Below are positions 4,634 through 54,300 of a DNA stretch of 64,000 nucleotides, in pieces. Each line of letters opens with the position of its first letter. The stretch's first letter is position 1. Source of the DNA: Planctomycetota bacterium (GTDB lineage Bacteria; Planctomycetota; Phycisphaerae; SM23-33); assembly GCA_022705325.1 (NCBI GenBank), contig JAKJER010000003.1:181419-245418 (forward strand), read 5' to 3'. Made by a program: the position numbers and the translations under genes. The notes beneath the pieces were generated by a model, which did no database searches, was not told where the DNA came from, and saw nothing but the letters and a program-made list of their open reading frames with translations.

Positions 4634-4748
4634 CCTTGCAGCCCTGGCCATTCGCCCTCTTGTCCCCGTGAACAGCGCCACTCGCGCTGGGTGTGCGCGC
4701 ACAAGCACACGGGCCCTGTCCGGGCCATCGCATCGGAGTCGCCCGCGG

Positions 4749-12518: not shown

Positions 12519-12543
12519 ATGTATCTCCGTTCTCGGCTAGCGG

Positions 12544-13311: not shown

Positions 13312-13313
13312 AG

Positions 13314-14162: not shown

Positions 14163-14180
14163 GAATTTCCCTTTCTGGGC

Positions 14181-16725: not shown

Positions 16726-16741
16726 GGACGATCGGGCAATC

Positions 16742-17125
16742 CTACTTCAGCACCGTCTGGATCTTCTTCTGGAGCTGGGCCATGTCCAGCGGCTTGCGAA
16801 GGAAGCCCTGAACGGGCAGGAAGTCGCCGGCCTTGTCCGGCTCGAGCACCTCGCCCGTCTTCTCCTCGATGCAGGTAATCATGAGGATGGGAACGTCCTT
16901 GGTCTGGGGGTTCTCGCGGATCTTGTAGGCCAGGTGGAAACCTTCGGTGTCGGTTTCCATCATCACGTCCAGCAGGATGAGGTCGACAGCCTGCTTGTCC
17001 AGCAGCGCCATGGCCTCGGCCCCGCTGCTGGCGCCGACCACTTCGTAGCCGGCGCCGCTGAGCATGATCTGCGTCGCGTCCCGCAGGTCGGGGTCATCGT
17101 CAACGATCAGGATCTTCTTCGCCAT
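16742..17125 (-). CDS. Stand-alone response-regulator receiver domain protein (CheY-like)
   Basis: MAKKILIVDDDPDLRD...DLILLDVMM...FLRKPL has the receiver-domain acid pocket (DD, D54-equivalent, K). 127 aa with no output domain. Confidence 0.85.
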   Translation of the reverse strand: MAKKILIVDDDPDLRDATQIMLSGAGYEVVGASSGAEAMALLDKQAVDLILLDVMMETDTEGFHLAYKIRENPQTKDVPILMITCIEEKTGEVLEPDKAGDFLPVQGFLRKPLDMAQLQKKIQTVLK

Positions 17126-17181
17126 TCAGGGACTCCTTCTCTGGTATTGGGACGGCCTTCGTAGCCGTCTTCCGTCTTGTC

Positions 17182-19295: not shown

Positions 19296-19432
19296 CGTCT
19301 CTGCGCCCTGGATTCTCTATCTCGGCGGTTGGCCTGCCCCCGCGGTTGCAGACGCCCACCCCGGCCAACGCCAACCCCCCGGCGTGATGCCGCTTGACCG
19401 TCCGTAGCCAAACACTTCTCTCCGCTGTCGCT

Positions 19433-19669
19433 TCACCCTGCCTCGCTCGTCGCGGCAGCATCCATCTGCCGCAGCAGGTCGTACGTAGCCAATGCATCCG
19501 CCTCGTCCAGCACCGTGATCGCATAGCCTGCGTGCACGAGCACCCAGTCGCCGATCTTGGCCTCCGGAACGAGCGTCAAAACAACATTCGTGCGGCTGCC
19601 GTCCAAGACGACCGTCGCACGATCATGCTCATTCATTGTCTCGATCTGGGCTGGAATGGCAAGGCACAT
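19433..19669 (-). CDS. hypC: Hydrogenase maturation chaperone HypC
   Basis: Begins MCLAIPAQI (the invariant MC(L/I)(A/G)(I/V)P N-terminus), about 78 aa, ATG at 19669. The ORF-track start at 19780 is an upstream extension. Confidence 0.85.
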   Translation of the reverse strand: MCLAIPAQIETMNEHDRATVVLDGSRTNVVLTLVPEAKIGDWVLVHAGYAITVLDEADALATYDLLRQMDAAATSEAG

Positions 19670-19814
19670 TTTGCGATTTTTTCCTCTCGACCGAATGCAA
19701 GTCGTCCTTTTGTACGTCATGGGACCGCCGAGGTCCACTGGATTTCCAGAAAAGCACCCCGCAGATCGGGCGTGCAGCATCTGTCCCCCCCCGTCCGCAC
19801 TGGAAGTTCGCCGA

Positions 19815-40163: not shown

Positions 40164-40507
40164 GTCTGCACTCCTCTGGCCCGGCCAATACGGTCCACCT
40201 CGTCTCCTGTAACCGCTGGGGCCTGCTCAAGAGTATACACGTCTGAAAGGGCGCCGGTTACATGTGATTTCCCGGGCCCTGCACCGGCAATGGGCTCACG
40301 CGTCTGTTCCGTCTCGACCGATTAGGATATTGCTGTCTGACCGCGCCGCGAAAAGGGGCCTCTCCGCGGTTGGCGGCAACAATATAGTTGTAGAGGCGGC
40401 GTTAAGCCGTGCAGCGGCCGGTGAGGGTAAACCGGAGGGCGCGTGGGCTGCGGATCTGTGACCGGAGACGTGCAAGTTCAGCCAATATAGCGACTTGCAG
40501 GATAGAC

Positions 40508-42184
40508 ATGAGTATTGCCGAAGAACTGTTGGATCGCGGAATGATCACGGCGGAGCAGTTCGCCGAGGCCATGACTCTACACAAGAGCGAGGGGCTTCGT
40601 GTGGACCGGGCCCTGGTGAAGCTTGGCTGCCTGAGCGAGGATGCCCTGCTTCGGATCATGAGCGAGCAGTTGTCCATCCCCATGGTCGACCTGAGCAAGG
40701 TGAGCGTCGACGTGGAGATTCTCAAGAACCTCCCGGCCAAGCTGGTCTACCGCAAGCGCCTTGTGCCGGTCAGCCAGCACAACGGCTCGCTCACCGTCGC
40801 CACCAGCGACCCCTTCGACCTCTACGCTTTCGACGAGCTTCGCCTTCTGACGGGACTTGAGATCCGCCCCGTGCTGGCCAGTGAGGATGACATCAGCAAG
40901 ATCATCAAGGCCAACTACGGCGTCGGCGGCGACACCATCGACGAGATGATGATGTCCACCGACGACCTGGAAGTCATCAAGGACAGCAACGGGGACACCG
41001 AGGACCTCCTGGAGATGGCCCAGGAGGCCAGCGTCATCAAGCTGGTCAACGAGATCTTCCTGGAGGCCCTCAACGAGCGGGCCAGCGACATCCACATCGA
41101 GCCCTACGAGAAGGACCTCAAGATTCGCTACCGCATCGACGGCGTCCTCCATGATGCCTCGGTCCCCCCCCAGATCCGGCGATTCCAGGCCGCCATCATC
41201 AGCCGCATCAAGATCATGGCCTCCCTTAACATCGCCGAGAAACGCCTCCCCCAGGACGGGCGCATCAAGCTTCAGGCCGGCGGTCGCCAGATCGATATCC
41301 GCGTCAGCGTCATCCCGATGCTCTTCGGCGAGGGGATCGTGATGCGCTTGCTGGACAAGGCCAACGTCCTGTTCACCCTGCCGCAACTGGGCATGGACGA
41401 GACCACATTCGGCACGTTCAAGGAACTGATCGACCGCCCGCACGGTATCATCCTGGTCACCGGCCCGACCGGCAGCGGCAAGACCACCACCCTGTACGCC
41501 GCCCTCCAGGCGATCGTCAGCCCCGAGATCAAGGTTCTCACCGTCGAAGACCCCGTCGAGTACAACCTCGAGGGCGTCAATCAGATTCAGGTCCACCCGA
41601 AGATCAACATGACCTTCGCCGCCGGGCTGCGGGCCATCCTCCGCCACGACCCCGACGTGGTCATGATCGGCGAAATCCGCGATTCCGAAACCGCCGAGGC
41701 CGCCATCCAGGCCTCCCTTACCGGGCACCTGGTGTTATCCACCTTGCACACCAACGACGCCTGCTCGGCCGCCACCCGCCTGCTGGACATGGGCATCGAG
41801 CCGTTCCTGGTCTCCAGCACGCTGATGGCCGCCATGGCCCAGCGACTGGTGAGGACCATTTGCTCCGAGTGCAAGGAAGCCTACAAAGCCGACCGCGAGA
41901 ACCTGCCCGCCGACTTCACGCCTCCCGACGACCTCAAGCTCTACCGCGGGGCCGGCTGCCGAAAATGTCGCGGCACCGGCTATCACGGACGAACGGGGGT
42001 CTACGAAATGATGCTGGTCAACGAGCCGATCCGCCAGCTCATCATGGCGCGCCGCACCGCCGGCGAGATCGTCCGGGAAGCCAGGAAGATCGGGCTGCGA
42101 TTGCTGCGGGAGGACGGCTGGGACAAGGTTCGCCATGGGATTACCACCCCGGAAGAGGTTACGCGAAACACCAGCTTCGCGTAG
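40508..42184 (+). CDS. gspE: Type II secretion / type IV pilus assembly ATPase GspE/PilB family
   Basis: N1 domain; Walker A GPTGSGKTTT, Asp box, Walker B VVMIGEIRD and His box. C-terminal tetracysteine CSECK...CRKCRGTGY typical of GspE. ATG at 40508. Confidence 0.9.
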   Translation: MSIAEELLDRGMITAEQFAEAMTLHKSEGLRVDRALVKLGCLSEDALLRIMSEQLSIPMVDLSKVSVDVEILKNLPAKLVYRKRLVPVSQHNGSLTVATSDPFDLYAFDELRLLTGLEIRPVLASEDDISKIIKANYGVGGDTIDEMMMSTDDLEVIKDSNGDTEDLLEMAQEASVIKLVNEIFLEALNERASDIHIEPYEKDLKIRYRIDGVLHDASVPPQIRRFQAAIISRIKIMASLNIAEKRLPQDGRIKLQAGGRQIDIRVSVIPMLFGEGIVMRLLDKANVLFTLPQLGMDETTFGTFKELIDRPHGIILVTGPTGSGKTTTLYAALQAIVSPEIKVLTVEDPVEYNLEGVNQIQVHPKINMTFAAGLRAILRHDPDVVMIGEIRDSETAEAAIQASLTGHLVLSTLHTNDACSAATRLLDMGIEPFLVSSTLMAAMAQRLVRTICSECKEAYKADRENLPADFTPPDDLKLYRGAGCRKCRGTGYHGRTGVYEMMLVNEPIRQLIMARRTAGEIVREARKIGLRLLREDGWDKVRHGITTPEEVTRNTSFA

Positions 42185-42402
42185 CAGAGCGCCGGCGGTC
42201 TTGCGTTGGTAACTGGAAGTTGGCAGCCTGGAGCGGTAGACAACCTCCGCGAACCTGCCTTGCGGGCCAAGCAGCCTGTGGGGCGTGAGGGACGGTTGGA
42301 TCGCTCGCATGGATTGGTTGACCCGCCTCTTGCCTTCGGCGGGCCCGAGGCCGCGAGGGGCCAAGAGACCGACGGACAGCGATCGACAGTCGAAGACCGA
42401 AC

Positions 42403-43605
42403 ATGAGTCGCTTCTACGAGTATGTCGCCCGGAACACGGCCGGGGAAGAAGTCGCCGGCACGATGCAGGCCGACAGCGAGGCGGCCGTTGCCCGCACGCT
42501 CAACGAGCGTCAACTCTTTCCGGTCCGCGTAAGCGAGCAGGCTGACGCCGGCCAGTCCACCCGGCGCCGCAGGGGCAAGATCGCTCTGCGCCATGTCGGG
42601 GCGTTCTATGGGCAACTCAGCGACCTGCTCCAGGCCGGCGTGCCCATGATGCGGGCCCTGGACACCCTAGTCCGCTCATCGGTCAACCCCGTGTTCACGC
42701 CGATCATGCAGAAGGTTCGCGATGAGGTGTCGGCGGGCAAGACGCTGGCCGACGCGATGGCGGAGCATCCCGAGGCCTTCACCTCGCTCCATACCGCCAT
42801 GATCCGCGCCGGCGAGGCTGCGGGTTTCCTGGAAGACGTGCTGGCCAACCTGGCCCAGTTCATCGAGCGCGTGGACGACCTCCGCAGCCGTGTCCGCGGG
42901 GCCATGATCTACCCCATGATGCTCACGATTTTCGGGCTGGCGGCCATGGTGTTCATCCTCATTGTCCTGGTACCCCAGTTCAAGCCGGTCTTTAAGAACA
43001 TGCCCCTGCCTCTGCCCACTCTGGCGCTGTTTGGCCTGAGCGACCTGCTGGTCCAGTACTGGCATGTGGCGGGCGCCATGGCGCTACTGGGCCTGCTGGG
43101 GCTGCAGTTCGCACTCTCCAGTTCCTGGGGCAAGCAAAAGTGGGAGCGATGGCGCCTCAAGCTGCCCCTGCTGGGCCGCGTGACCACCATGGTCAGCATC
43201 ACCCGGTTCTGCCGCATCCTGGGCACCATGCTGGCCAACGGTGTGCCCATCATCCAGGCCCTGAACATCTCCAAGGACGCCACCGGCTGCACGGTCCTGG
43301 CCGGCCATATCGAAAAGGCCACCGACAACGTCCGCGCGGGCGAACCCCTGGCCCATCCGCTCAAAGAGAGCGGACTCTTCCCAGCCGAGATCATCGAGAT
43401 GATCGCCGTCGCCGAGGAGTCCAACCAACTCGACAAGGTTCTTGTCCAGATCGCCGATACCGTTGAACGCAGGACCAACCGCCAGGTAGACGTGGCCGTC
43501 CGCCTGGTCGAACCGCTCATCCTGGCCCTGATCGCAGGGGCCATCGGGTTCATGGCCGTCGGGCTTTATTACCCGATCTTCAACATGGCCAAGACGTTGC
43601 GCTAG
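42403..43605 (+). CDS. gspF: Type II secretion system inner-membrane platform protein GspF/PilC family
   Basis: Two GspF repeats, each with a cytoplasmic domain plus TM helices. 400 aa, and the typical ...IYPIFNM C-terminus. Confidence 0.9.
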   Translation: MSRFYEYVARNTAGEEVAGTMQADSEAAVARTLNERQLFPVRVSEQADAGQSTRRRRGKIALRHVGAFYGQLSDLLQAGVPMMRALDTLVRSSVNPVFTPIMQKVRDEVSAGKTLADAMAEHPEAFTSLHTAMIRAGEAAGFLEDVLANLAQFIERVDDLRSRVRGAMIYPMMLTIFGLAAMVFILIVLVPQFKPVFKNMPLPLPTLALFGLSDLLVQYWHVAGAMALLGLLGLQFALSSSWGKQKWERWRLKLPLLGRVTTMVSITRFCRILGTMLANGVPIIQALNISKDATGCTVLAGHIEKATDNVRAGEPLAHPLKESGLFPAEIIEMIAVAEESNQLDKVLVQIADTVERRTNRQVDVAVRLVEPLILALIAGAIGFMAVGLYYPIFNMAKTLR

Positions 43606-43741
43606 CCGCCCAGGGGCGAGAGAGGGTTTCGATGGAATTTCACGCCGACGCGCCAAGCAATTCGCCGCAGCAGCGTTAACCATATAACAGAAGTTGGGCG
43701 GCACCGAGGCCGCCGGACGCGAGACAGGAGAAAGGAACACA

Positions 43742-44209
43742 ATGATTGCGTCGCGAACAACTGGAAGAGGCTTTACGCTGGTCGAGGTGCTGCTGGTCAT
43801 CGTGATCATTGCCATGCTGGCTGGCGTGGCGATCGTGGCCTTCCCGGGCATTCTCAGCGGGGCCAAGGAAGATACCACGCGCCAGAAGCTCAAGGCCGTC
43901 GCCAACGTCCTGGACACGTACAACCTCCACATGGGGCACTACCCCACCGAAGAAGAGGGCGGTCTCAAGGCGCTGACGGTCAAGCCCGAGGTGGATGAGA
44001 AAGCCGCCGAGAAGTGGCGGGGGCCTTATCTTACCGAAGACCCCGTGGACGCCTGGGGCAATGAGTTCGTCTACATGCCCACGGCCCCCGAGACCTCCGG
44101 AGAGAAGACCGGCCCGGCCTACACCCTTTTCTCCAAGGGCCCCGACGGGCAGGAAAACACCGAGGATGATGTGTCGGCCCAACCCAAGAGCGAAGACTAC
44201 GAGAAGTAG
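43742..44209 (+). CDS. gspG: Type II secretion major pseudopilin GspG
   Basis: MIASRTTGRGFTLVEVLLVIVIIAMLAG prepilin leader and N-methylation motif. The WRGPYL...DAWGNEFVY core is typical of GspG. ATG at 43742 with an AAAGGA RBS. Confidence 0.85.
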   Translation: MIASRTTGRGFTLVEVLLVIVIIAMLAGVAIVAFPGILSGAKEDTTRQKLKAVANVLDTYNLHMGHYPTEEEGGLKALTVKPEVDEKAAEKWRGPYLTEDPVDAWGNEFVYMPTAPETSGEKTGPAYTLFSKGPDGQENTEDDVSAQPKSEDYEK

Positions 44210-45029
44210 CCTCGCAACGGCTGGCAATAGACAGGAGCGGCGCCGGACGCGTCTGCAGGCTTCGGCGCCGTCTCTTTGCGCTGCGCACCGGGGCCGAGGC
44301 GGCTTCACGCTCATAGAGACCTTCGTCACCCTTGTCCTGCTGAGCCTGCTGGGCGGACTGGTTATCGTCAACTTCCATTCCTGGCGGCGGGGCTACAACC
44401 TGGAGGAAGGCGCCCTCCAGGTGGAGACGCTTCTGCGCCTGACGCGAGCCGAGGCTGCACGCGTGGGCCTTCGCTTCCGCCTGCAGGCCGACGAGGAGAC
44501 CGGCACACTCCAGGTCCTCTACGAGCCCAAGCCTCTGGAAGAACCCGGGACCTTCGTCCCCTATCGCGACGCTTCGTGGGTCACCTACACCCCCGAGGCG
44601 ATGGTCCTCGTCAAACGTATCCGCCTGAGCGGCCCGGCGGCCTTCCGCACCATGAGTATTCAGCAGATCGAGGGCGGCGAGCAGAGCGAGTTCGAGCCGA
44701 TCACGCTCTACCCCGACGGCTCGTGTGACTCGGCCCTGATTGAGTTGGCCGACACGGAAGAACTCGAAGACGATCCGACACAAGCCCATCGCGCCTTGCT
44801 GATCCTGGACGGCGTGCACTGCGTGATCAATCCGCATTACATCACGCCGTCCCAATACGAAGAGTACAAGACGACCCCGTTCAACCCGGAGAATCCCAAG
44901 GCGGTCATCCCCCCGCCCCCAGAGGAAGAGGGCGAGGACCCGTACGCCCCGCCGCCGGAACCGCCCCCGCCGGGCAAGATCATCAACAAACCCTCCGGCA
45001 ACGGAAAGAACCCCAGCCTCATGGGGTAG
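44166..45029 (+). CDS. Minor pseudopilin (GspH-like) with a C-terminal Pro-rich extension. The start is uncertain. The nearest in-frame ATGs (44166/44169) overlap gspG. A CTG at about 44253, preceded by AGGAG, would give a canonical short leader.
   Basis: RGRGGFTLIETFVTLVLLSLLGGLVIV prepilin motif plus a pseudopilin-like beta domain. The frame is continuous from 43995. Confidence 0.6.
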   Translation: MMCRPNPRAKTTRSSLATAGNRQERRRTRLQASAPSLCAAHRGRGGFTLIETFVTLVLLSLLGGLVIVNFHSWRRGYNLEEGALQVETLLRLTRAEAARVGLRFRLQADEETGTLQVLYEPKPLEEPGTFVPYRDASWVTYTPEAMVLVKRIRLSGPAAFRTMSIQQIEGGEQSEFEPITLYPDGSCDSALIELADTEELEDDPTQAHRALLILDGVHCVINPHYITPSQYEEYKTTPFNPENPKAVIPPPPEEEGEDPYAPPPEPPPPGKIINKPSGNGKNPSLMG

Positions 45030-45101
45030 TCGCAGGCATGCCGCACTCCCTGGACCGCAGACCCATGCAGCAACCGGCAAGAAAGGAATCGCACAAGTCC
45101 G

Positions 45102-45593
45102 ATGGCTCCCCTGGCTGACAGCTTCGGTGCCTGGTCGGCGAGTCGGCGCGGCGGCATCCTGTTGGAGGTCGTCCTGGCGATGGTGCTGTTCTTCTCGGCC
45201 GGGGCGGTCATTCTGGCCGGGCTGGGCAGCGCCGTGCGCGGCATGGAGCAGCTTCGCCTGGACGCCCAGGCGGCCGACCTGGCTGTCACGCTGCTTTCGC
45301 GCCTGCAGATCGGCGACCTGGAACTGACCGACGCCGGGCCCACCGAGTTCGAACCCATTGAGGGCCCCGAGCAGGAACTGGAAGGCTGGACGTGGCAGGT
45401 GATCACCACCGAGATGCAGGACACCATCGATGCCGGCGGGCCCACGGGCAAACTCGTCCAGGTGATCGTGAAGAACGAACAGAAAGGATACTCCTACCGC
45501 CTTTCGCAGTGGTTGGCCACCGATGAGTCGGGCCAGGTGGTGACCGCCGCGACCCAACCCGCCGCCAGCGCCAGCGAGGAGGACCTGCCATGA
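45102..45593 (+). CDS. Minor pseudopilin (GspI-like) with a degenerate prepilin motif RRGGILLEVVLAMVLFF
   Basis: Hydrophobic N-terminal helix after a Gly, small size (163 aa), and a position between H-like and J-like genes. Moderate call. Confidence 0.55.
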   Translation: MAPLADSFGAWSASRRGGILLEVVLAMVLFFSAGAVILAGLGSAVRGMEQLRLDAQAADLAVTLLSRLQIGDLELTDAGPTEFEPIEGPEQELEGWTWQVITTEMQDTIDAGGPTGKLVQVIVKNEQKGYSYRLSQWLATDESGQVVTAATQPAASASEEDLP

Positions 45594-46303
45594 AGCGGGG
45601 CGGCTTCACACTCTTCGAGGCCCTGTTGGCCATTGGATTGTCCATCGGCATCGTCGGCGGGACGATGGCCCTGTACCAGCAGGCCGTCATGATCCGCCAA
45701 CGCATCAGCGAGGACCTCGAGGTCCTGACGGCCGAGCGGATCATCATGGACCGCATGACGCAAGAGATGCGTGCCGCGATCGTCTACCCGTTCCTTGGCT
45801 TTGGCCTGGAAGGCCAGGCCGACAGCATCACGTTCATGACCGCGACCGTCCCGGGCCCGGCTGCCTGGGCGGTTCGATCAGGATCCGAAGACCCCGTCCC
45901 ACCGGAGACGGACCTGCAACTGGTGACGTATCGCATGCGAACGTACGAGGATGACTACGGCATGCTCCAGGTCGCGGGGATCGAGCGAAGCTGCCAGCGG
46001 ATCCTGTCCTCCCCCACCGCCCAGGAAGGGGCCGACGTGTCCACCGTCCTGCTGACCCCCTACATTCAGCACATGCAGTTCGCCTTCTTTGACGGATCAG
46101 GCTGGACCAACATCTGGCAGGACAAGGGGCTCCCCCTGGCCGTCGAGGTGACGATGGGTTTCCCGCCCCTGCCCGAAGAGGTCGAGGCCCAGGATTATCC
46201 CTACCCGGTCTTTCGGCGCATGATCTACCTGCCCGGCGCGACCACCTCGCTCCAGGGCCCGCTCATCCGCGGGCTGGGCGGACGGAGAGGAGGGGGACGA
46301 TGA
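45590..46303 (+). CDS. Minor pseudopilin (GspJ-like)
   Basis: MKRGGFTLFEALLAIGLSIGIVGG canonical prepilin N-terminus. Its start overlaps the upstream gene by ATGA. 237 aa. Confidence 0.65.
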   Translation: MKRGGFTLFEALLAIGLSIGIVGGTMALYQQAVMIRQRISEDLEVLTAERIIMDRMTQEMRAAIVYPFLGFGLEGQADSITFMTATVPGPAAWAVRSGSEDPVPPETDLQLVTYRMRTYEDDYGMLQVAGIERSCQRILSSPTAQEGADVSTVLLTPYIQHMQFAFFDGSGWTNIWQDKGLPLAVEVTMGFPPLPEEVEAQDYPYPVFRRMIYLPGATTSLQGPLIRGLGGRRGGGR

Positions 46304-46461
46304 TGATTGCTGATTACGGATCGCGGATTGCCGATTGCAGACGATTGACGATTGTCGATTGTCGATTCTCGACTCGTCCTCGGTGTCCCAGCGTCCAGTC
46401 GCGAGTTGGGAATCGAAGATCGCATACGGAGAATTCCGCAGTCCGTGATCCGCAGTCCGCA
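46300..46461. repeat. Intergenic short-repeat region: a run of cgattg(c/t/a) heptamer-like repeats (about 7 copies) followed by the 10-nt direct repeat ccgcagtccg x2, immediately before the gspK start
   Basis: Read directly: gattgctgattacggatcgcggattgccgattgcagacgattgacgattgtcgattgtcgattctcgac ... ccgcagtccgtgatccgcagtccgcaATG. Confidence 0.4.
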
Positions 46462-47865
46462 ATGGCGAAGGGCACGATCCTGGTGGCGGTGCTCGTCGTG
46501 ACGGCCCTGGCGTCGATGGTGGCGGTGACGGCAATGTACCGCATGCACAGCGAAAGCGCCGCTTGCGCCGCCAGCACCCTCAACGAGCAGGCGCACGCCG
46601 CGGCCATGAGCGGCATCGCCCGCGTGACCGCACTGCTGCGCGTCGTTCGCGAGAGCGGGATCGATCTGTACGACAACCCCGGCCTGCTTCGCACCCAACT
46701 CGTCTGCGACGACGGCATTAACAAGTGGTACTTCACCATCTACGCGGGGGTTGACGCCCCGGGCTTCGGCGGCTCGACATTCGACTCCGCCGGGGACGCC
46801 AAGGTCCGCTACGGCGTGATCGACGAGGCCGCCAAGATCAACATCAACTTCGCCACGCCCGAGTCGCTGCTGGCCCTGCCCGGCATGAACGAGGAACTGG
46901 CCGACTGCCTTGTCGACTTCCGCGACCGCGACAACGAACCCCTGCCTAACGGCGCCGAGCAGGAATACTACGACCAACTCCCCCGTCCTTACAAAGCCAA
47001 GAACGGGTTCTTCTTCACCCTGGAAGAGACGCTGCTGGTCAAGGGCTTCAACGGATCGATCCTGTACGGCGAAGACGCCAACCTCAACGGGATGCTCGAG
47101 CCGAACGAGGACGACGGGGACGCGACCTTCCCGGCCGACGACTCGGACGGGCAACTCAATCCCGGCCTGCGCGGGCTGGCCACCACGCTGACCTACGAAC
47201 CCGACGTCGACAACGAGGGCCAGGCCCGCACCAACCTCAATACGGCCGTCCGCTCCGTCGAGGGCCTCGACCCGCGCACAACGGCGTTCATCCAGGCGTA
47301 CCTGGCCGACAAGAACGTCTTCACGCATCCGAGTCAACTGCTGAACATGGAGTACCGTCTGAAAGCGGACCAGCCGACCAAGGCCGGCCAAACGGGCCGA
47401 AAGGCCGGCGAGGTCATCTACTCCTACGTAGACGCCTCGACGCTGCCGCTGGTGCTGGATCGCCTGACAACCAATCCTTCCAAGATGCCCCTTTTCGGGC
47501 TGCTCAACGTGAACAGCGCACCGGCGGGCGCGCTAGCCGCCGTGCCGGGCATGGACGCCGACCTGGCGCGGCGGATCGTGGACGCTCGGGCTTCCATCGC
47601 CCCCGAAGCCCGCGCCACGACGGCGTGGCTGTTCACCGAGGGACTGATGGATGCCGATCGCTTCAAGCAGGTCGCCCCCCGGCTGACCGCACGCACCTTC
47701 CAGTACCGCGTCCAATGCGTGGGCTTCGGCTGGCCTTGCGGGCGGTATCGGGTCATCGAGGCCGTGGTGGACCTGGCCGGCGGGACGCCGAGACTGCTGT
47801 ACATGCGCGACCTGACGCGCATGGGAGTCCCCCTGCCGCTGAACGTGGACTCGGGCGAAGGATGA
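46462..47865 (+). CDS. gspK: Type II secretion system protein GspK (minor pseudopilin-like with helix-hairpin-helix domains)
   Basis: N-terminal TM helix MAKGTILVAVLVVTALASMVAV. Two HhH motifs (ININFATPESLLALPGMNEELADCLVDFR and LLNVNSAPAGALAAVPGMDADLARRIVDAR). About 468 aa. Confidence 0.75.
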   Translation: MAKGTILVAVLVVTALASMVAVTAMYRMHSESAACAASTLNEQAHAAAMSGIARVTALLRVVRESGIDLYDNPGLLRTQLVCDDGINKWYFTIYAGVDAPGFGGSTFDSAGDAKVRYGVIDEAAKININFATPESLLALPGMNEELADCLVDFRDRDNEPLPNGAEQEYYDQLPRPYKAKNGFFFTLEETLLVKGFNGSILYGEDANLNGMLEPNEDDGDATFPADDSDGQLNPGLRGLATTLTYEPDVDNEGQARTNLNTAVRSVEGLDPRTTAFIQAYLADKNVFTHPSQLLNMEYRLKADQPTKAGQTGRKAGEVIYSYVDASTLPLVLDRLTTNPSKMPLFGLLNVNSAPAGALAAVPGMDADLARRIVDARASIAPEARATTAWLFTEGLMDADRFKQVAPRLTARTFQYRVQCVGFGWPCGRYRVIEAVVDLAGGTPRLLYMRDLTRMGVPLPLNVDSGEG

Positions 47866-48070
47866 TCGCGGATGCAGGAGACACAAGCGAAGAAAGGCCC
47901 GGCGCAGCAGGCGGCGGAGCGACGCAGTTCAGATGGCACATGGGAGCCCTTGCTGCTTTGCGGAACCGCCCCGAGGCGATTGTGTCTCTTTGAGGCCCTA
48001 AGACGTCGAATTTCCTTCCCGGTCCTGCGTTTAACTTGAACAGGATGCGCATGGACGCTGGAGATCGAGA

Positions 48071-50029
48071 ATGTCGGTTCTGTCGGGCGTGAAAAAGCTG
48101 GTGTCCGGTTTGCCGAGGCGGTTCACCGCGGTGGACTTCGACTCGCGCCAGATGCGCATCGTCCACGCCGAGCACGTGGGTGGGCGCATGCGGGTGCTCA
48201 AGCTGCATCAACTGGCCATGCCGCCGGAAACGGACCTGTCCAACGCCCAGTTGGTCGGACAGGTCCTGGGCAAGGGCATCCGCGATCTGGGGCTGTCCGG
48301 AACGGGCGTGCTGATGAATGTGCCCCGCGGACAGGCGGTGCTCAAGCCCCTCACGCTCCCCGCGCAGACTCCGCGACAGGAACTGCCAGCCATGGTCCAG
48401 TTCCAGATGGAGAAGGAACTCCCCTTCCGCCCCGAGGAAGCGGTTATCGACTTCACCATGGCTGAGCATTTCGACGCGGTCGCCAGCGCCGAACTCAGCG
48501 CCGCCGGCGCGGGCGTCAGCCTGTTGGTGTCGGCGGTGCGCCTGCCTGTCGTCGACTACTATCGCCGCGTCGCCGAAGCCGCGGGAGTCAAGCTCGCTCG
48601 CCTGGGGCTGAGACCCTACGCCAGCATTCAGTGCGTCGATGCCTGCACCCTGCGGGCGGAGAGCGAGACGGTCGCCATCGTCCACGTCACCCCGGACGAG
48701 ACGGAGATCAACGTCCTCCTGGGCGGGGGCCTGACGTTCAGCCGCTCGGCCGTCGTCACCGTCCTGCCCCCCAAGACCGGCAGCGACCCGGCGGTCAAGG
48801 AGACCGTAGACGCTCTGGCCACCGAGGTCGCCCGGAGCCTCCAGAGCTACCAGGCTGTCCAGGGCGGCAAGAAGGTCGACGCCATCCTCGTCGCCGGCGG
48901 GACGGGCATCGAGTCGCGGCTGGCCAGCCACCTGGCGCAGCGCCTGCTGACCAAGTGCGAGATATTCCACCCCGGCCCGGCCCTCGGCGTGCACAGCGAT
49001 GCGCCGGAGACCTCCGCCTTCATTGCGGCCCTTGGGCTGGCCGTCGGGCACTGCAGCAAGATCCTGCCTTTCGACTTCCTCGCCCCCAAGCGCCCCGTGG
49101 TCCGGCGCGATCTCAAGAAGATCCGCCGCATCGCCGCCCTGGCGATGGCCGGCGTTGTCCTCCTGGGCGCCGGCATCGCCTTCACCGCTCACCTCCAGGC
49201 CAAGCGGACCGTCCTGCAGAACCTTCGCAACAAGGTTGCCTCCGCACAGAAGGAGAACAAGGACGTCAAGGCCCTGCAGAAGCGGGTGAAGGCTTTCGAC
49301 ACGTGGCTGTCCGACAGCCGCAACTGGCTCGATCACTGGACCTATCTCAGTTGTCTCTTCCCGCCCTGCCAAGACGCTTATATCTCCGACTTCCGCGTCA
49401 ACCGCAGCGATGGCTCGATCAGCTTCATCGTCAAGGCCCGTGAGGCCGAAATCATCACCGACCTCGGAAAACGCCTCACCGAAGCCGGCTACGAGTTCCG
49501 CGCCGGGCGCGAGACCGCCACCGAGCAGGACCGTTACGGGTACCTCCACGCCGCCGACATGAAGGTGATCCTCCCGCCGAACCTGGAGATGAACCTGGCC
49601 AACATGGAGAAGCCCAAGCGCCCGGTCGACGACTCTTCCCTGGAGGACTTTCTCCGGCCCGGCTACAAGCCTGTGGGTTCGCCGAACCTGCGTCCGCCTG
49701 AAGGCTCCCCCCCCTCCGCCTCCGGCCCGGCGCCCTCGTCGTTGCCATCGTCACCGGAAGCGCCCGAGGCGCCCGCAGCTCCGACGGCGGCATCGCCTCC
49801 TCCTCAGCCCGCCGACGGATACATCGGAACCGACGGCAAGACCTACACGGGCCGGCTCGCCGTCGACCGCAAGCAGCACGAGAAGACGACGGAGCTGTAT
49901 TGGCAGAAGAAGGTGCGAGACCGCGAGAGAGAGAGCCAGCGAGAGGTCGAGAAGAAACGCGAGTTGGAGAAGGCGCGCGAGCGGGAACGCGAACGACGCT
50001 CCAGCCGCCGGGGGGACGGCAATGAATAA
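48071..50029 (+). CDS. GspL-like assembly protein: PilM-like actin-fold cytoplasmic domain, TM helix and PilN/GspL-like periplasmic domain, ending in a Pro-rich and highly charged (RDRERESQREVEKKRELEKARERERERR) tail
   Basis: PilM/FtsA-like N-terminal region (about 330 aa). TM IAALAMAGVVLLGAGIAFTA. Periplasmic domain and low-complexity C-terminus. 652 aa. Confidence 0.7.
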   Translation: MSVLSGVKKLVSGLPRRFTAVDFDSRQMRIVHAEHVGGRMRVLKLHQLAMPPETDLSNAQLVGQVLGKGIRDLGLSGTGVLMNVPRGQAVLKPLTLPAQTPRQELPAMVQFQMEKELPFRPEEAVIDFTMAEHFDAVASAELSAAGAGVSLLVSAVRLPVVDYYRRVAEAAGVKLARLGLRPYASIQCVDACTLRAESETVAIVHVTPDETEINVLLGGGLTFSRSAVVTVLPPKTGSDPAVKETVDALATEVARSLQSYQAVQGGKKVDAILVAGGTGIESRLASHLAQRLLTKCEIFHPGPALGVHSDAPETSAFIAALGLAVGHCSKILPFDFLAPKRPVVRRDLKKIRRIAALAMAGVVLLGAGIAFTAHLQAKRTVLQNLRNKVASAQKENKDVKALQKRVKAFDTWLSDSRNWLDHWTYLSCLFPPCQDAYISDFRVNRSDGSISFIVKAREAEIITDLGKRLTEAGYEFRAGRETATEQDRYGYLHAADMKVILPPNLEMNLANMEKPKRPVDDSSLEDFLRPGYKPVGSPNLRPPEGSPPSASGPAPSSLPSSPEAPEAPAAPTAASPPPQPADGYIGTDGKTYTGRLAVDRKQHEKTTELYWQKKVRDRERESQREVEKKRELEKARERERERRSSRRGDGNE

Positions 50030-51098
50030 GCGCGAGAAGACGATGGCTGGCCTGACCGCCGCCATGGCGGGGATCTTCCTGGGTTTCCTGACGATCAACG
50101 GCTTCGTGCTCAAACCGCTGCAGAAGATGGATGTCGACGCCCAGAAGCTCAGCGGGCAACTGGCGAGCTTGCAGCGAGAGAATGCAGCCCGCAAGAGCCT
50201 CGAGCCGCGTCTCAAGGAGTTGGTGTCGCGCTGCTTCGGCGGCGACGAACTCAAGGCGGGCGAGGAACTGCGGGCCCGGCTGGTGACGCTGATGGACCAG
50301 GCGGGGCTGTCCACCGAGAAGCGTCTGCTGAACCCGGTCACCGGACAGTCGGTCAGTGGCGCGTACAAGGAGATCGGACGGCGGGTACAGGTCAGCGGGA
50401 AGCTCGGCAACGCCGTCGACTTCCTCTATTTGCTCAATGCAGAGCCGCACCTGCACCGCCTGGACTCGCTCAGCCTCACACCCGCCCAGGGAGGCACCGT
50501 GGAGTTGAACCTGACCTACTCCACGCTCGTGCCAGCGGAGGGCTTGCCAGCCTCCAAGGACATCAAGCCGCTTCCCACGCAGCCCGCGCCCAACCTGCGA
50601 GAAGGCGAGCGGACACTGTACGATCCGATCGCGTCGCGAGATCTTCTGCGCCCGTACATCAAGCGCCCCCCGCCGCCTCCCCCGGTGCCGCAGCCCGTGC
50701 CCGCTGTTGCACGCCGCCATGATCCGCCCCCACCGCCTCCCCCGCCGCCAAAGACCAGCAGCGAGGGACGCTATCGCCTGGTCCTCATGCCGATGGCGCC
50801 GGGAGAGCCGTTCTCCGTGCTGGACCAGAGCACGCGCCAGACCTACTCCTACAACATCGGGCAGTTCCTGGGCGGCGGAAAGGTCGTCATGGTCGACTTC
50901 CGCCCCTGTCCCCTCCCGGACGACCCCGACACGATCTCGCCCAGCAGGCTCATTCTCCAGATCGGCGACGCCTACTGGGCCGTCGAGTATGGACAGACCC
51001 TCTCGGCCAAGCGACAATTGCGGAAGGATGAATTGCCTCCTGAATTGTCTGGCGCCGCAGCAGCGCCGGCCAGTCAACCGGCCTCGCCAGCCTCCTGA
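50022..51098 (+). CDS. GspM/PilO-like bitopic assembly protein with a poly-proline segment (hypothetical)
   Basis: Overlaps the upstream stop (ATGAATAA). N-terminal TM LTAAMAGIFLGFLTINGFVL plus coiled coil, then a PPPPPPVPQPVP...PPPPPPPPK tract. Assignment is by position and topology only. Confidence 0.45.
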   Translation: MNKREKTMAGLTAAMAGIFLGFLTINGFVLKPLQKMDVDAQKLSGQLASLQRENAARKSLEPRLKELVSRCFGGDELKAGEELRARLVTLMDQAGLSTEKRLLNPVTGQSVSGAYKEIGRRVQVSGKLGNAVDFLYLLNAEPHLHRLDSLSLTPAQGGTVELNLTYSTLVPAEGLPASKDIKPLPTQPAPNLREGERTLYDPIASRDLLRPYIKRPPPPPPVPQPVPAVARRHDPPPPPPPPPKTSSEGRYRLVLMPMAPGEPFSVLDQSTRQTYSYNIGQFLGGGKVVMVDFRPCPLPDDPDTISPSRLILQIGDAYWAVEYGQTLSAKRQLRKDELPPELSGAAAAPASQPASPAS

Positions 51099-51350
51099 GC
51101 CGGAGGCAGAGCAAGGTCTTACAACCGATGCATCAACGCGCACCGCCCCCGGAGAGGGTGCGTGCCCCAGGAGGGGCCACTGCAAGCTCCCCAGGTCGCA
51201 GTCCAAGCCCCTGTATCCTGTGGGACAGTTGGCCCCAAACGCGGTGCAAAATGCGGCAGTCCGGGCGTATGATCGCCTGGTTCCTGCGTTAGACATGAGA
51301 TGAACGAACTCAAGCCTTCTTGCGTGTGTAAGGCTTCAGGAGATCAGACG

Positions 51351-54300
51351 ATGCGAACTAACTGGATACTGGCTTTCGCGGTTATCTCCGCCCTTGCCGT
51401 GGCCCTGACTGCCCAGACGACCAAACCGTCGCCGCAGCCGGCCACCCAGCCAGCCGCCGCACCGACCACCCAGCCCGCCGTCGCTGCCGCGCCGACCACC
51501 AAGCCGGCCGTTGCCGCTGCGCCGACTACCCAGCCCGCCGTCGCTGCCGCACCGACCACCAAGCCGGCCGTTGTCGCTGCGCCGACTACCCAGCCCGCCG
51601 TCGCTGCCGCACCGACCACCAAGCCGGCCGTTGCCGCTGCGCCGACCACCCAGCCCGCCGTCGCTGCCGCACCGACCACCAAGCCGGCCGTTGCCGCTGC
51701 GCCGACCACCAAGCCCGCCGTCGCTGCCGCGCCGACCACCAAGCCGGCCGTTGCCGCTGCGCCGACCACCCAGCCCGCCGTCGCTGCCGCGCCGACTGTG
51801 AGACCGGCCGGGACGTACAGTAAGGACTCACCCAAGATCTTCCTCTTCCAGTTTAGCGGCTGTCCGTATCATGAGGTGATTCGCAAGTTCGCCCAGGCCT
51901 GTAAGAAACCGTTGTTGGGGGAAGTCGAGATTCCGGGCAGTCTCACGTTCTTCGACAGCGAACCTTACTGCTACGAAGAAGCCCTGGACACCCTCAACAT
52001 CCTCTTGAACATGCGGGGCTTCGCCCTGATCGAGTTCAAGCGGTATCTCCGCGTGGTGCAGGTAACCGAACTGGCCAACAACGCGAGCATCCTCCGCGGA
52101 CTGGACCAGGTCGGGGACATCCGGAACGAGCAGGTCGTCACCGTCTTGCTTCCGGTGGAGAATCTCGATCCGGAGGCCGCCTCCAAAGCCATCGTCCGCA
52201 TGGTGTCTTCGTACGGCTCGATCACTCCCATGCCTCGAGGCAAGGGTGTTCTCATCACCGACCGTCTGTCCAGCGTTCGCCGCATTCAGGACATGATCCA
52301 GATGCTGGACGCCGAGCGGGCGACCGCCAGCGACATCAAGACCATCCAGATCAAGAAGGCTTCGGCCAAGTCCGTCGCTTCGGTCATCAATCAGGTCCTG
52401 GGCGGTCCGTCTTCCAGCCCCGAACGCAGGTCGTCATCGGCTCCGCCGGCCTCTTCGGGTGACAGCGTGTCAGCCTACAGCGATGACCGCACCAATCTCC
52501 TGTTCCTGCGCGGTGTGGGCGCCAAGCTGCAACTGGCCGAGCAACTCGTGGAGAAGTTGGACAGCGAAGCGACCAGCGATGTCAGCGACATGCGCCTGAT
52601 CGAGTTGAAGAACGCCCGCGCCGAGGACGTAGCCAAGACCATCAGCGAAGTCATGCCCCGCGACCAGATCCAGGTGGCGGGCCCGCCCAGCAGCGACTCC
52701 AGCCGACGCCACTATCCCGTCACCGTGGCCAAGGGCAAGGTCGTCGCCGAGCCGGAGACCAACCGCCTGATCGTCTCCGCTCCGCTGGACGTGATGGTCA
52801 AGATCGAGGAACTGATCAAGAAGCTCGACGTGGCCAGCGACACCAGCGGCGGGGTCAAGGTCCTGCGTCTCAAGACCGCCGACGCCGCCCAGCTTGCCCC
52901 TATTGTCTCGGCCGCGGTGGCCAAGCAAACCCTCGCCGCTGGCGGGGCGAGAAGGGGAATGGTCACTGTCACCGCAGACAGCCGCACGAATTCTCTGGTG
53001 ATCGTGGGCCCGGCCGGCGACATCCAGGCAGCCGAGAAGCTCGTCGCCGAACTCGACCGCCCGCTGGACAAGGAAGAGGAACGCCAGATCCGCATCATCC
53101 AGTTACCCTCGGGCAACGCCGAGAAGCTGGCCAGTGCCATCTCCCGCGTGCTGGACAGCTCCCCGTCTTCGCATTACGGCTCCAGCCGCTATGGGTCGTC
53201 CTCGTCCCGCTCCCAGACCAGCCGCCCGCGTATCGAGGCCGACTCCGGCACCAACAGTCTGCTGATCTCGGCTGCCCCAAGCGACTGGCCGCAGATCGAA
53301 TCCATCCTGAAGCAGATCATTCCGCCCCCACCGCCTGACCAGCCCGCGGCCGCCACGCCGCTGGCCTTGACGACTCCGGTGCTGCGCCACGTGCCGCTCA
53401 AGTTCGCCAAGGCGGAGGATCTCGCCACCACGCTGCTGTCCGTGTTCGGCACGCGCCGGCGCAGCGAGGCCGTTTCCATCATCATCACCCCGTCGGCCCG
53501 CACCAACAGTCTGCTCATCTCGGCCGCCGAACCCGACCAGATCGCCATGGGGGAGTTGATCAAGACTCTCGACGTCGACTCCAGCGAGAAGCTCGACCCG
53601 GTCCGCATCGTCGAACTGAAGGTGGCTGACGCCGCCAAGGTCGCCGACGCCATCCAGGCCGTCCTGCCCCCGCGCCCCGTCGGGCGACGCGGCGAGACCC
53701 ACCAGGTCACCATCCACGCCGACACCGCCACCAACACCCTCTTTATCCGCGCCGGCGAGGCCGAGCAGAAGCTCATCGACGAGGTTATAGCCCGGATGGA
53801 CAAGGGCGCAATCGACCCCACCATTGTCCGCGAGACGCGAATCATCGCCCTCAAGTTCGTCCCTGCCAGCCAGATGGCGGCCAGTGTCCAGCAGTTCTTC
53901 CAGTCGGCCGGCGGCTCGCCCTCCAGCCCATACGGCTCGTCGTATTATCGCCGCCGGAGCTACTCCTCCGCCTCCGGAGAAAAGGCCTTCGATTCGCTGG
54001 TCGTCGCCGCCGCACCGGGAGACCAGGCCCTCATCGTGGAAGGACCCAAGAAGAAGGTCGACGAGGTCGCCGCCTTCGTCGCCAAACTCGACACCCAGGA
54101 CACCGGCCAGGCGACAATTGTCCGCGTCTATACCCTCAAGGAAGCCGACGCCGGCGAAATCTCCCGGACCCTGTCGGCCACTTTCTCCAAGAAGTGGCAG
54201 GACCAGAAGCGACGCGATCCGAAGCTGGCCGACCCCGAGCCGTCGTTTGAAATCAACGCCGGCGCCAACCAGCTCATCATCGCCGCCACCGAGAAGCAGC

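What the first reader, a model, noticed from the sequence alone, without database searches (positions are those of the whole stretch)
40508..51098. Complete T2SS/T4P-like operon with unusual components, ending in the giant secretin
All genes are co-directional with short gaps or overlaps (ATGA at 45590, ATGAATAA at 50022), which suggests one transcription unit. The order is:
- gspE (ATPase with the tetracysteine motif);
- gspF;
- gspG;
- three minor pseudopilins (one with a degenerate GGILLEV motif);
- gspK with two helix-hairpin-helix (HhH) motifs;
- a 652-aa PilM-PilN-type GspL fusion ending in a strongly charged RDRERE...ERERERR tail;
- a GspM/PilO-like protein with a long poly-proline tract;
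- the giant secretin-like gene.
The two proline-rich and charged periplasmic extensions, in the L-like and M-like proteins, could be adaptations to a wide periplasm.
Basis: partly seen in the sequence, partly recalled or inferred. Interest (0 to 1): 0.6.

Follow-up and report, generated by a model that had tools for sequence, protein, structure and literature searches.

The report
Secretion-system operon with a giant secretin
This is a real ten-gene type II secretion-like operon from a Phycisphaerae (Planctomycetota) bacterium whose outer-membrane channel protein is about seven times longer than normal (over 4,600 residues, more than 50 repeated ring-forming domains); the same layout recurs in dozens of related species, and I found no paper describing it.

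Summary
Window 40508-51098 carries nine co-directional genes: gspE, gspF, gspG, H-, I- and J-like pseudopilins, gspK, a 652-aa L-like gene and a 358-aa M-like gene. A secretin-like ORF follows from 51351 and is still open at the window end.

HMM and fold searches confirm nearly every assignment.
- The secretin has a weak N0 match and 46 Secretin_N units in the window. Merged with an identical public fragment it reaches at least 4,659 aa and 53 units, still without its C-domain.

The order E-F-G-H-I-J-K-L-M-D is collinear in about 80 species-level genomes of Phycisphaerae and Verrucomicrobiota. Complete orthologous secretins are 4,536-4,756 aa and end in a Secretin domain.

Corrections:
- There is no prepilin peptidase or separate GspC in the window.
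- gspK starts at 46462.
- The gspH start is uncertain.
- Most gaps are 72-252 bp.

Co-transcription and function are untested. Verdict: a new variant of a known kind.

The parts
40508..42184 (+). gspE-type secretion ATPase, 558 aa, with an N-terminal MshEN-type region and the CSEC...CRKC tetracysteine motif
   Evidence: TIGR02533 GspE 659.1 bits, above the 630.25 cut-off. PilB scores 612.7, below its 675.65 cut-off. Pfam T2SSE 9.8e-142 and MshEN 2.2e-22. Public gene calls give the same 558-aa product.
42403..43605 (+). gspF-type inner-membrane platform protein, 400 aa
   Evidence: Pfam T2SSF, 2 stretches, 2.1e-56. The best NCBIfam match is GspF TIGR02120 (324 bits, below the 424 cut-off).
43742..44209 (+). 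gspG major pseudopilin, 155 aa, with prepilin motif G|FTLVE
   Evidence: TIGR01710 108.4 bits, above the 88.85 cut-off. Pfam T2SSG 2.4e-23 and N_methyl.
44166..45029 (+). gspH-like minor pseudopilin with motif RGRGG|FTLIE encoded at about 44295 and a Pro-rich C-terminal tail. The start is uncertain: ATG 44166 (overlapping gspG by 44 nt) or CTG 44253.
   Evidence: Weak GspH hit (TIGR01708, 9.5e-06) and N_methyl. Relatives give weak Pfam GspH hits at the same position. There is no ATG, GTG or TTG in frame between 44169 and 44421.
45102..45593 (+). gspI-like minor pseudopilin, 163 aa, with the variant motif RRG|GILLEV
   Evidence: Weak XpsI/GspI hits (0.0018 and 0.051). The variant [GA]|xxLLEVVLA motif, with E at +5, is conserved in three relatives. 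The syntenic position is kept in about 70 loci.
45590..46303 (+). gspJ-like minor pseudopilin, 237 aa; overlaps I by ATGA
   Evidence: Pfam T2SSJ 25.4 bits (cut-off 28); TIGR01711 4.4e-05 over 4-189. The ATGA overlap was read directly.
46462..47865 (+). gspK-like minor pseudopilin, 467 aa, with two HhH stretches
   Evidence: Pfam T2SSK_1st 44.3 bits (cut-off 26.2), T2SSK 27.5 bits (cut-off 24.2) and HHH_3 with 2 stretches. NCBIfam GspK 5.3e-17. The start was set by homology.
48071..50029 (+). L-like assembly-platform protein, 652 aa. It has a PilM-type actin-like cytoplasmic domain (17-327), a TM and long helix (348-414), a ferredoxin-like PilN/GspL-type periplasmic domain (419-500), a disordered P/S-rich linker (532-580) and a charged helix (595-646).
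50022..51098 (+). M-like protein, 358 aa. It has a TM helix and coiled coil (3-94), a PilO/GspM ferredoxin-like domain (102-171), a conserved RDLLRPYIKRP motif, a poly-Pro linker (230-246) and a conserved six-strand beta domain (251-322).
51351..64000 (+). 5' part (4,216 codons) of a giant secretin gene. It encodes a signal peptide, a (PTTQ/KPAVAAA)n low-complexity region, an N0-like domain and then a continuous string of Secretin_N units. The ORF is still open at the window end.
   Evidence: Pfam Secretin_N, 46 stretches, 1520.8 bits; N0 17.7 bits, which is weak. It is identical to public fragment P0259, which extends it to at least 4,659 aa and 53 units. Complete orthologues of 4,536-4,756 aa carry PF00263 at the C-terminus.
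51453..51796 (+). 60-bp tandem repeat (5.7 copies, 96% matches) inside the secretin 5' region, encoding the Pro/Thr/Ala-rich tract
   Evidence: TRF result. Other assemblies of the same organism end here or carry a 100-N gap here.

Best explanation
This is a type II secretion-type machine of the type IV filament superfamily, in a layout shared by Phycisphaerae and Verrucomicrobiota.

Inferred parts:
- GspE, an ATPase with a PilB/MshE-like N-terminus, and GspF form the cytoplasmic and inner-membrane motor.
- GspG polymerises into a pseudopilus tipped by the H-I-J-K minor pseudopilins.
- The alignment subcomplex is built from T4P-like parts rather than canonical GspL, GspM and GspC. L is a single polypeptide that fuses a full PilM actin-like domain to a PilN-like transmembrane and periplasmic part, which gives GspL-like topology.
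- M is a PilO/GspM-like protein. Its poly-proline linker carries a small conserved beta domain, which I infer docks onto the secretin N0 domain. GspC-HR and PilP do that job in known systems.
- The outer-membrane channel is a secretin whose periplasmic part is expanded from the usual 3-4 N domains to more than 50 back-to-back N-domain units.

If these units stack as rings as in known secretins, they would form a conduit of the order of 100-200 nm. That would bridge the enlarged periplasm of these bacteria, so the inner-membrane platform can still couple to the outer-membrane gate.

Shown: gene content, domain identities, fold matches and conservation of the whole cassette.
Inferred: co-transcription, protein secretion as the output, docking of M's C-domain to N0, and ring stacking and total length of the secretin.
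For: Component identities. GspE and GspG pass equivalog cut-offs, GspK domains pass Pfam cut-offs, and the secretin ORF has 46 Secretin_N units.

L:
- The AF2 model shows a TM helix plus a ferredoxin-like periplasmic domain.

M:
- The six-strand C-terminal domain is modelled at pLDDT 82-93.
- GspC_delta is the only recurrent family hit for that region.

Conservation:
- E-F-G-H-I-J-K-L-M-D is collinear in essentially all of 80 species-representative loci where the contig is long enough.
- M is conserved full-length in 73-76 of them.
- In 46 loci the secretin ORF is still open after at least 2,700 aa and holds at least 25 N units.
- Complete orthologues run N0 + 47 Secretin_N + Secretin (4,756 aa) or are 4,536 and 4,739 aa.
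- At 50% clustering, 413 representatives match at E<1e-30, most of the top 150 being 3,400-5,500 aa.

Other points:
- N units tile residues 284-4658 at a mean spacing of 83 aa with almost no spacers.
- No PilT-type retraction ATPase or other pilus gene lies in the window.
- No + strand terminator-like site lies inside the cluster.
Against: - No experiment or transcript data exist. Intergenic gaps in this genome reach 252 bp, so internal promoters are possible.
- L and M resemble T4P PilM/N/O more than GspL/M, and E has a PilB/MshE-like N-terminus. The output could therefore be a fibre rather than secreted proteins.
- The GspC/PilP assignment of M's beta domain is weak. NCBIfam gives 8.5e-04 for the window protein. 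With the beta domain alone, only 3 of 23 homologues hit, best E 0.0063. PDB profile searches and hhalign against E. coli GspC were negative.
- No prepilin peptidase is in the window.
- The secretin C-domain of this particular gene was never seen, because every public copy is truncated.
- Stacking of more than 50 rings is an extrapolation from solved secretins with 3-6 rings. It is also unclear how a substrate or pseudopilus would travel through a tube that long.
Confidence: 0.62

Rival explanations
1. The cassette builds a surface fibre, a type IV pilus-like filament used for adhesion, uptake or motility. The giant secretin is then the exit conduit for the fibre, not for folded exoproteins.
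For: - E carries a PilB/MshE-type N-terminal MshEN region and scores 612.7 bits on PilB.
- M resembles Amuc_1100, and L weakly matches the Amuc_1101 family of the Akkermansia pili-like cluster (PMC5332112).
Against: - GspE and GspG pass the T2SS equivalog cut-offs, whereas PilB does not.
- The full G-H-I-J-K pseudopilin set, including GspK, is the T2SS signature.
- There is no PilT/PilU, no AMIN-domain PilQ and no PilA-type pilin in the window.
Confidence: 0.25
2. This is the first reader's version: the proline-rich and charged extensions of the L-like and M-like proteins are themselves the adaptation that spans a wide periplasm.
For: Both proteins do carry long low-complexity periplasmic segments, at L 532-580 and M 172-250. 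Such tails occur throughout both families.
Against: - About 80 disordered residues reach at most roughly 25-30 nm, whereas the secretin adds more than 50 N domains.
- M's poly-Pro is a linker to a conserved folded domain.
- L's tail is not conserved in kind. Homologues carry EF-hand pairs, W-rich charged repeats or RERE. That argues for a lineage-specific accessory role, not a spacer of fixed length.
Confidence: 0.1
3. The giant ORF is an assembly artefact or decaying pseudogene made of collapsed or expanded repeats, and the real secretin is of ordinary size.
For: - The 3' super-repeats are 91-99% identical.
- Every public copy of this gene is truncated at a repeat.
- The copy number of near-identical units cannot be trusted from short reads.
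Against: - The frame stays open for 12.7 kb with GC3 of 0.87.
- Independent assemblies agree base for base over 4,041 codons.
- Orthologues with divergent repeats (units 45-73% identical) are equally long, and complete ones reach 4,536-4,756 aa with a terminal Secretin domain.
- 46 species-level loci show the same thing.
Confidence: 0.03

Closest known systems
Canonical proteobacterial T2SS (Gsp/Pul/Eps/Xcp: GspC-O)
   Same: GspE ATPase with the tetracysteine motif, GspF, GspG major pseudopilin, the H-I-J-K minor pseudopilin block in the same order, then L-like, M-like and a secretin with N0 and Secretin_N domains. There is no retraction ATPase.
   Different: - The secretin sits at the 3' end of the cluster and is about 7 times longer: more than 50 N units against N0-N3 (E. 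coli GspD is 650 aa).
- There is no separate GspC. A GspC-like function is possibly fused to M.
- There is no GspO, GspN or pilotin in the locus.
- E has a PilB/MshE-type N-terminus.
Type IVa pilus alignment subcomplex PilM-PilN-PilO-PilP-PilQ
   Same: The cytoplasmic domain of L is PilM by sequence and fold. L's periplasmic part and M have the PilN/PilO ferredoxin-like fold behind a TM helix and coiled coil. The order M/N, O, (P), Q matches L, M, (M C-domain), D.
   Different: PilM and PilN are fused. There is no PilP lipoprotein gene, no AMIN domains on the secretin, and no PilT, PilU or PilA. The pilins are GspG-K type.
Akkermansia muciniphila Amuc_1098-Amuc_1102 pili-like cluster (PVC superphylum)
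   Different: Amuc_1098 PilQ is 907 aa with a TPR-containing N-terminus (PMC4960237), so it is not a giant N-domain array. L scores 41 bits against a 650-bit cut-off, so it is not a member of that family. The published Akkermansia cluster description does not include the GspE-K block.
Thermus thermophilus PilQ secretin with extra periplasmic ring domains (from my own knowledge: Burkhardt et al. 2011; D'Imprima et al. 2017)
   Same: It is the known precedent for a secretin that adds stacked N-domain rings to cross an unusually wide periplasm.
   Different: Thermus has about six rings in a protein of roughly 750 aa, in a T4P/DNA-uptake machine. Here there are more than 50 units in about 5,000 aa, in a T2SS-type cassette. 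I did not test this comparison with the tools.

Membership tests
Type II secretion system (Gsp) | GspE-family ATPase | tested here: met
   TIGR02533 659.1 bits against a 630.25 cut-off; tetracysteine motif present.
Type II secretion system (Gsp) | GspF polytopic platform protein | tested here: inconclusive
   Pfam T2SSF x2 passes (189.7 bits). The GspF equivalog is the best hit but falls below its cut-off (324 vs 424).
Type II secretion system (Gsp) | GspG major pseudopilin | tested here: met
   TIGR01710 108.4 bits against an 88.85 cut-off; Pfam T2SSG 82.7 bits.
Type II secretion system (Gsp) | Minor pseudopilins GspH, I, J and K | tested here: inconclusive
   K passes two Pfam GspK domain cut-offs. 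J scores 25.4 against 28. H and I give only weak hits (E 1e-5 to 5e-2). Order and prepilin motifs fit.
Type II secretion system (Gsp) | GspL (T2SSL cytoplasmic domain plus GspL_C) | tested here: not met
Type II secretion system (Gsp) | GspM | tested here: inconclusive
   NF040576 30.9 bits, below the 60 cut-off, in 12 of 17 homologues. The fold matches PilO (12.2) better than EpsM (7.9) or PulM (7.7).
Type II secretion system (Gsp) | GspC (HR domain contacting secretin N0) | tested here: inconclusive
   There is no separate gene. M's C-terminal region hits GspC_delta at 8.5e-04 (4 of 17 homologues; beta domain alone 3 of 23, best 0.0063). PDB profile searches and hhalign against E. coli GspC were negative.
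Type II secretion system (Gsp) | GspD secretin: N0, N-domains and a C-terminal Secretin domain | tested here: inconclusive
   In the window there are 46 Secretin_N units and a weak N0 (17.7 bits). The C-terminal PF00263 domain lies beyond the window and beyond all public copies. Syntenic orthologues have it.
Type II secretion system (Gsp) | Prepilin peptidase GspO/PilD | tested here: not met
   None was found among 29 other window ORFs scanned with Pfam, nor in the relatives' cassettes. It may be encoded elsewhere in the genome.
Type II secretion system (Gsp) | Secretion of folded periplasmic proteins across the outer membrane | not testable with these tools
   This needs mutants and a secretome analysis.
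Type IVa pilus machine (PilBCMNOPQ, PilT, PilA) | PilM actin-like protein | tested here: met
Type IVa pilus machine (PilBCMNOPQ, PilT, PilA) | Separate PilN, a PilP lipoprotein, a PilQ with AMIN domains, a PilT retraction ATPase and a PilA-type pilin | tested here: not met
   The PilN-like part is fused to PilM. No PilP, AMIN, PilT or PilA hits were found in the cluster or the window.
Amuc_1101 family (Akkermansia PilM-like pilus complex protein) | NCBIfam NF045709 score above its cut-off | tested here: not met
   41.2 bits against a 650 cut-off, local match only.

The most novel reading that the evidence does not exclude
The roughly 5,000-residue secretin assembles into a multimeric tube of more than 50 stacked N-domain rings, on the order of 100-200 nm long and several megadaltons. 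The tube would run from the inner-membrane platform to the outer membrane, docked at its base through the extra beta domain of the M-like protein. That would make it a new architectural class of type II secretion / type IV filament machine, specific to PVC bacteria with enlarged periplasms. It could correspond to envelope-spanning structures seen in these cells by electron microscopy.
Probability: 0.35. Interest if true: 0.85.

Novelty: new variant of a known kind. Interest (0 to 1): 0.65.

Why it matters
Secretins studied so far carry a handful of periplasmic N domains, sized for a periplasm of about 20-30 nm. A cassette conserved across two phyla in which the secretin carries more than 50 N domains suggests how Planctomycetota and Verrucomicrobiota couple an inner-membrane secretion motor to the outer membrane across a much wider periplasm. 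These bacteria are major polysaccharide degraders with unusual envelopes.

It raises a mechanistic puzzle for the piston model of type II secretion: how does a pseudopilus or substrate cross a tube about 100 nm long?

It gives a natural intermediate between the T4P PilM/N/O proteins and T2SS GspL/M/C, because PilM-PilN are fused and a PilO-like protein carries a possible docking domain.

There is also a practical point. These genes are routinely truncated or mis-called in MAGs, so secretion capacity in these phyla is probably under-annotated.

Tried and rejected
Recovering the end of the secretin gene:
- Exact-match scans of genome contigs and metagenome contigs with the last 50 bases of the window found nothing.
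- All contigs carrying the M gene also truncate the secretin.
- Only P0259 extended it, by 443 aa, and that is still incomplete.

Homology searching: the word-indexed search with the secretin N-terminal part returned no protein longer than 1,831 aa and missed the self-protein. The exhaustive representative search was needed to find the giants.

Assigning M's C-terminal beta domain:
- PDB profile searches with three alignments gave no GspC or PilP hit (A1, A3, A4).
- hhalign against E. coli K-12 GspC was negative twice.
- I rejected the idea that the GspC_delta hit is solid. With the Pro-rich segment removed it persists in only 3 of 23 sequences.

Literature: ten searches found no description of giant secretins or of this cassette in Planctomycetota or Verrucomicrobiota. 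Several were diluted because 'secretin' also matches 'secreting'.

Other scans:
- Rfam on 39500-52000 gave nothing, including no c-di-GMP riboswitch upstream of gspE.
- The promoter and terminator scan was at chance level. It gave one promoter-like site at 50990-51018 against 1.1 expected, and no + strand terminator inside the cluster.
- The DNA repeat search found only the shared prepilin-motif coding segments.

I considered and rejected a mobile-element or island origin. GC content is uniform, the flanks are housekeeping genes, and no integrase or transposase turned up among the ORFs I scanned.
Full report
SOURCE AND OBSERVATION

The window is 63-69% GC in 2-kb windows. Its L-like and M-like proteins are 100% identical to proteins named from 'Planctomycetes bacterium ADurb.Bin126'. 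Relatives are named Phycisphaerae.

Between 40508 and 51098 there are nine + strand ORFs with GC3 of 0.80-0.87. Upstream lie a 344-bp divergent intergenic region and an EF-hand repeat protein on the minus strand at 38712-40163.

The other gaps are 72-252 bp. That is looser than in relatives, where spacing runs from a 4-bp overlap to an 88-bp gap. No terminator-like site lies on the + strand inside the cluster, and the single promoter-like hit is at chance level. From 51351 a frame stays open to the window end, 4,216 codons in all.

COMPONENT IDENTITIES

- E passes the GspE equivalog cut-off (659.1 vs 630.25 bits) but not PilB (612.7 vs 675.65). It has the CSEC...CRKC motif and an N-terminal MshEN-type region.
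- F has two T2SSF domains, and GspF is its best family match.
- G passes the GspG equivalog (108.4 vs 88.85).
- H, I and J have prepilin-type N-termini and weak GspH, GspI and GspJ hits.
- K passes the Pfam T2SSK_1st and T2SSK cut-offs and has two HhH stretches.

The 'degenerate' GGILLEV motif in I is a conserved variant. Three relatives have RRA|VALLEV, RRG|VVLLEV and RRA|AVLLEV. Cleavage after the first G or A places the glutamate at +5 in all four.

Two gene-start corrections are needed. K starts at 46462, as in relatives. Automatic calls start H at 44421 and so cut off its prepilin motif. The only in-frame starts upstream are ATG 44166, overlapping gspG by 44 nt, or CTG 44253.

THE L-LIKE PROTEIN

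L has a PilM_2 domain (3.9e-21), and a profile of 46 homologues hits PilM structures at 4e-17.

The AlphaFold model (pLDDT 82.3) shows, in order:
- an actin-like domain (17-327);
- a TM and long helix (348-414);
- a ferredoxin-like domain (419-500);
- a disordered Pro/Ser-rich stretch (532-580);
- a confident charged helix (595-646).

The tail varies among homologues: EF-hand pairs, one or two W-rich charged repeats (the window's ELYWQKKVRDRERE resembles these), or plain low complexity.

THE M-LIKE PROTEIN

M has no Pfam hit. It gives a sub-threshold GspM hit (2e-07), which recurs in 12 of 17 homologues.

The model (pLDDT 78.7) shows, in order:
- a TM helix and coiled coil;
- a ferredoxin-like domain (102-171);
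- a short helix over the invariant RDLLRPYIKRP motif;
- the disordered poly-proline tract (230-246);
- a well-modelled six-strand beta domain (251-322).

It is conserved full-length in 73-76 of 80 related loci. The only recurrent family hit for it is the deltaproteobacterial GspC model, and that hit is weak: 8.5e-04 here, and 3 of 23 homologues at best 0.0063 when the Pro-rich part is removed. Sequence-profile comparisons with solved structures and with E. coli GspC were negative. Reading it as a GspC-HR/PilP-like N0-docking domain is an inference from its position, topology and this weak signal.

THE SECRETIN

Pfam finds 46 Secretin_N stretches (1520.8 bits) and a weak N0 match in the 4,216 in-window residues. 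The window shows no C-terminal Secretin domain, because the gene runs off the end.

An exhaustive search returned P0259, which is identical over 4,041 residues and extends the protein by 443 aa. The merged protein is at least 4,659 aa and still ends inside a repeat. A custom HMM counts 53 units tiling residues 284-4658 at a mean spacing of 83 aa.

Two super-repeat arrays exist:
- a unit of about 340-358 aa (four domains), about 5 copies, 45-73% identical;
- a unit of about 306-313 aa, at least 5 copies, 65-99% identical.

A 60-bp tandem repeat at 51453-51796 encodes a Pro/Thr/Ala-rich tract before N0. Other assemblies break or carry an N gap there.

CONSERVATION

Neighbourhoods of three L homologues show the same ten-gene order, with secretins of 4,739 and 4,536 aa. 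The 4,536-aa one has N0, Secretin_N and Secretin on record. The third was mis-called by the gene finder but has the giant frame too.

P0263 (4,756 aa, Phycisphaerae MAG) has N0, 47 Secretin_N stretches and PF00263 at 4479-4645.

A scan of GTDB species representatives with the L profile found 148 relatives, of which 80 loci were kept. They come from Phycisphaerae/Planctomycetota and, at 32-37% identity, from Verrucomicrobiota.

Across those loci:
- tblastn shows E-F-G-H-I-J-K-L-M-D collinear wherever the contig allows;
- in 46 loci the secretin frame is still open after at least 2,700 aa with at least 25 units;
- in 12 more it is open but the contig ends sooner;
- closed examples are 1,257-2,492 aa with 13-24 units;
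- runs of N are negligible.

At 50% clustering, 413 representatives match at E<1e-30, and most of the top 150 are 3,400-5,500 aa.

The rest of the window holds housekeeping genes: uvrA, GH4, a NiFe hydrogenase with hyp genes, PFK and a likely purH (by eye from its translation; not scanned). It has no prepilin peptidase, PilT or other pilus gene.

INTERPRETATION

The cassette is a T2SS-type member of the type IV filament superfamily. Its pseudopilus genes are Gsp-like, but its alignment subcomplex is built from PilM/N/O-like parts.

Its secretin periplasmic region is expanded more than tenfold. If the units stack as rings as in solved secretins (my own knowledge: roughly 3-4 nm per ring), the conduit would be of the order of 100-200 nm. 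That matches the idea of an enlarged periplasm far better than the roughly 80-residue linkers of L and M do.

I commit to protein secretion as the most likely output (about 0.6). A fibre-forming machine is the main rival (about 0.25).

Co-transcription, function, M-to-N0 docking and ring stacking are all inferred, not shown.

COMPARISON WITH KNOWN SYSTEMS, AND NOVELTY

The cassette fails membership of GspL. It is inconclusive for GspM, GspC and GspF at equivalog level. So it works like a T2SS but is not a canonical Gsp system. It is not a T4aP machine either, having no PilT, PilA, PilP or AMIN domains.

The Akkermansia Amuc_1098-1102 cluster is a distant PVC relative of the L-M-D module, but its secretin is 907 aa (PMC4960237, PMC5332112). 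Thermus PilQ is the known small-scale precedent for extra secretin rings (own knowledge, not tested here).

Ten literature searches found no description of giant secretins or of this cassette. Database annotations only say 'secretin N-terminal domain-containing protein' or 'type II secretion system protein D'.

I rate it a new variant of a known kind, with interest 0.65.

Noticed in passing
window 40508-40720 (GspE residues 1-72): The ATPase has an N-terminal MshEN-type region. It nearly reaches the NCBIfam 'cyclic di-GMP-binding domain, MshE-related' cut-off (36.7 vs 38 bits, E 2.7e-09), so the machine may be regulated by c-di-GMP. No c-di-GMP riboswitch was found upstream (Rfam).
   Followed up: partly
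window 38712-40163 (-), and L-homologue C-termini: A secreted 483-aa protein packed with EF-hand motifs is transcribed divergently from gspE. The same neighbour occurs in at least one relative (L006). Many L homologues carry EF-hand pairs at their periplasmic C-terminus. This points to a recurring calcium link with the machine.
   Followed up: partly
window 51453-51796: A 60-bp tandem repeat (5.7 copies, 96% matches) encodes (PTTQPAVAAA/PTTKPAVAAA)n just after the secretin signal peptide. Three other public assemblies of the same organism end here or have a 100-N gap here, so its copy number is uncertain.
   Followed up: yes
window about 60900-64000 and beyond (secretin residues about 3200-4659): Four-domain super-repeats of about 310 aa are up to 99% identical to each other. 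This implies very recent internal duplication or gene conversion, and it explains why no public contig reaches the 3' end of the gene.
   Followed up: partly
window 46304-46461: The gspJ-gspK spacer contains a run of imperfect short repeats (gattgc/cgattg...: 'gattgctgattacggatcgcggattgccgattgcagacgattgacgattgtcgattgtcgattctcg') and then 'ccgcagtccgtgatccgcagtccgca'. Relatives have no spacer here. Its nature is unknown.
   Followed up: no
secretin residues about 870-2110 (window about 53950-57700): Many N-domain units carry Ser/Tyr/Arg-rich low-complexity loops (for example SSSSSSYRRSYYRSYD and SPYSSRRRYGASASS) at equivalent positions in each super-repeat. Their function is unknown.
   Followed up: no
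L006 / L010 (GCA_964385465.1, CAYLPJ010000013.1): The stored gene calls for this contig list small minus-strand ORFs where a secretin frame of more than 2,869 aa actually lies. The frame has a clear N0 domain behind a Lys/Pro/Glu-rich repeat. Giant secretins are being missed by automatic annotation.
   Followed up: yes
window 11214-22199 (-): A NiFe hydrogenase gene cluster: large and small subunits, FAD/NAD and Fe-S subunits, then a histidine kinase and response regulator, then hypD and hypF. It fits an anaerobic-digester lifestyle and is unrelated to the finding.
   Followed up: no
L009-L088 record titles: Several loci that clearly belong to this Phycisphaerae-type cassette come from MAGs titled 'uncultured Anaerolineales', 'Klebsiella sp.', 'Methylomirabilota' or 'Akkermansia muciniphila'. 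These are probably mis-binned or mis-named records, so taxonomic counts drawn from titles should be treated with care.
   Followed up: no
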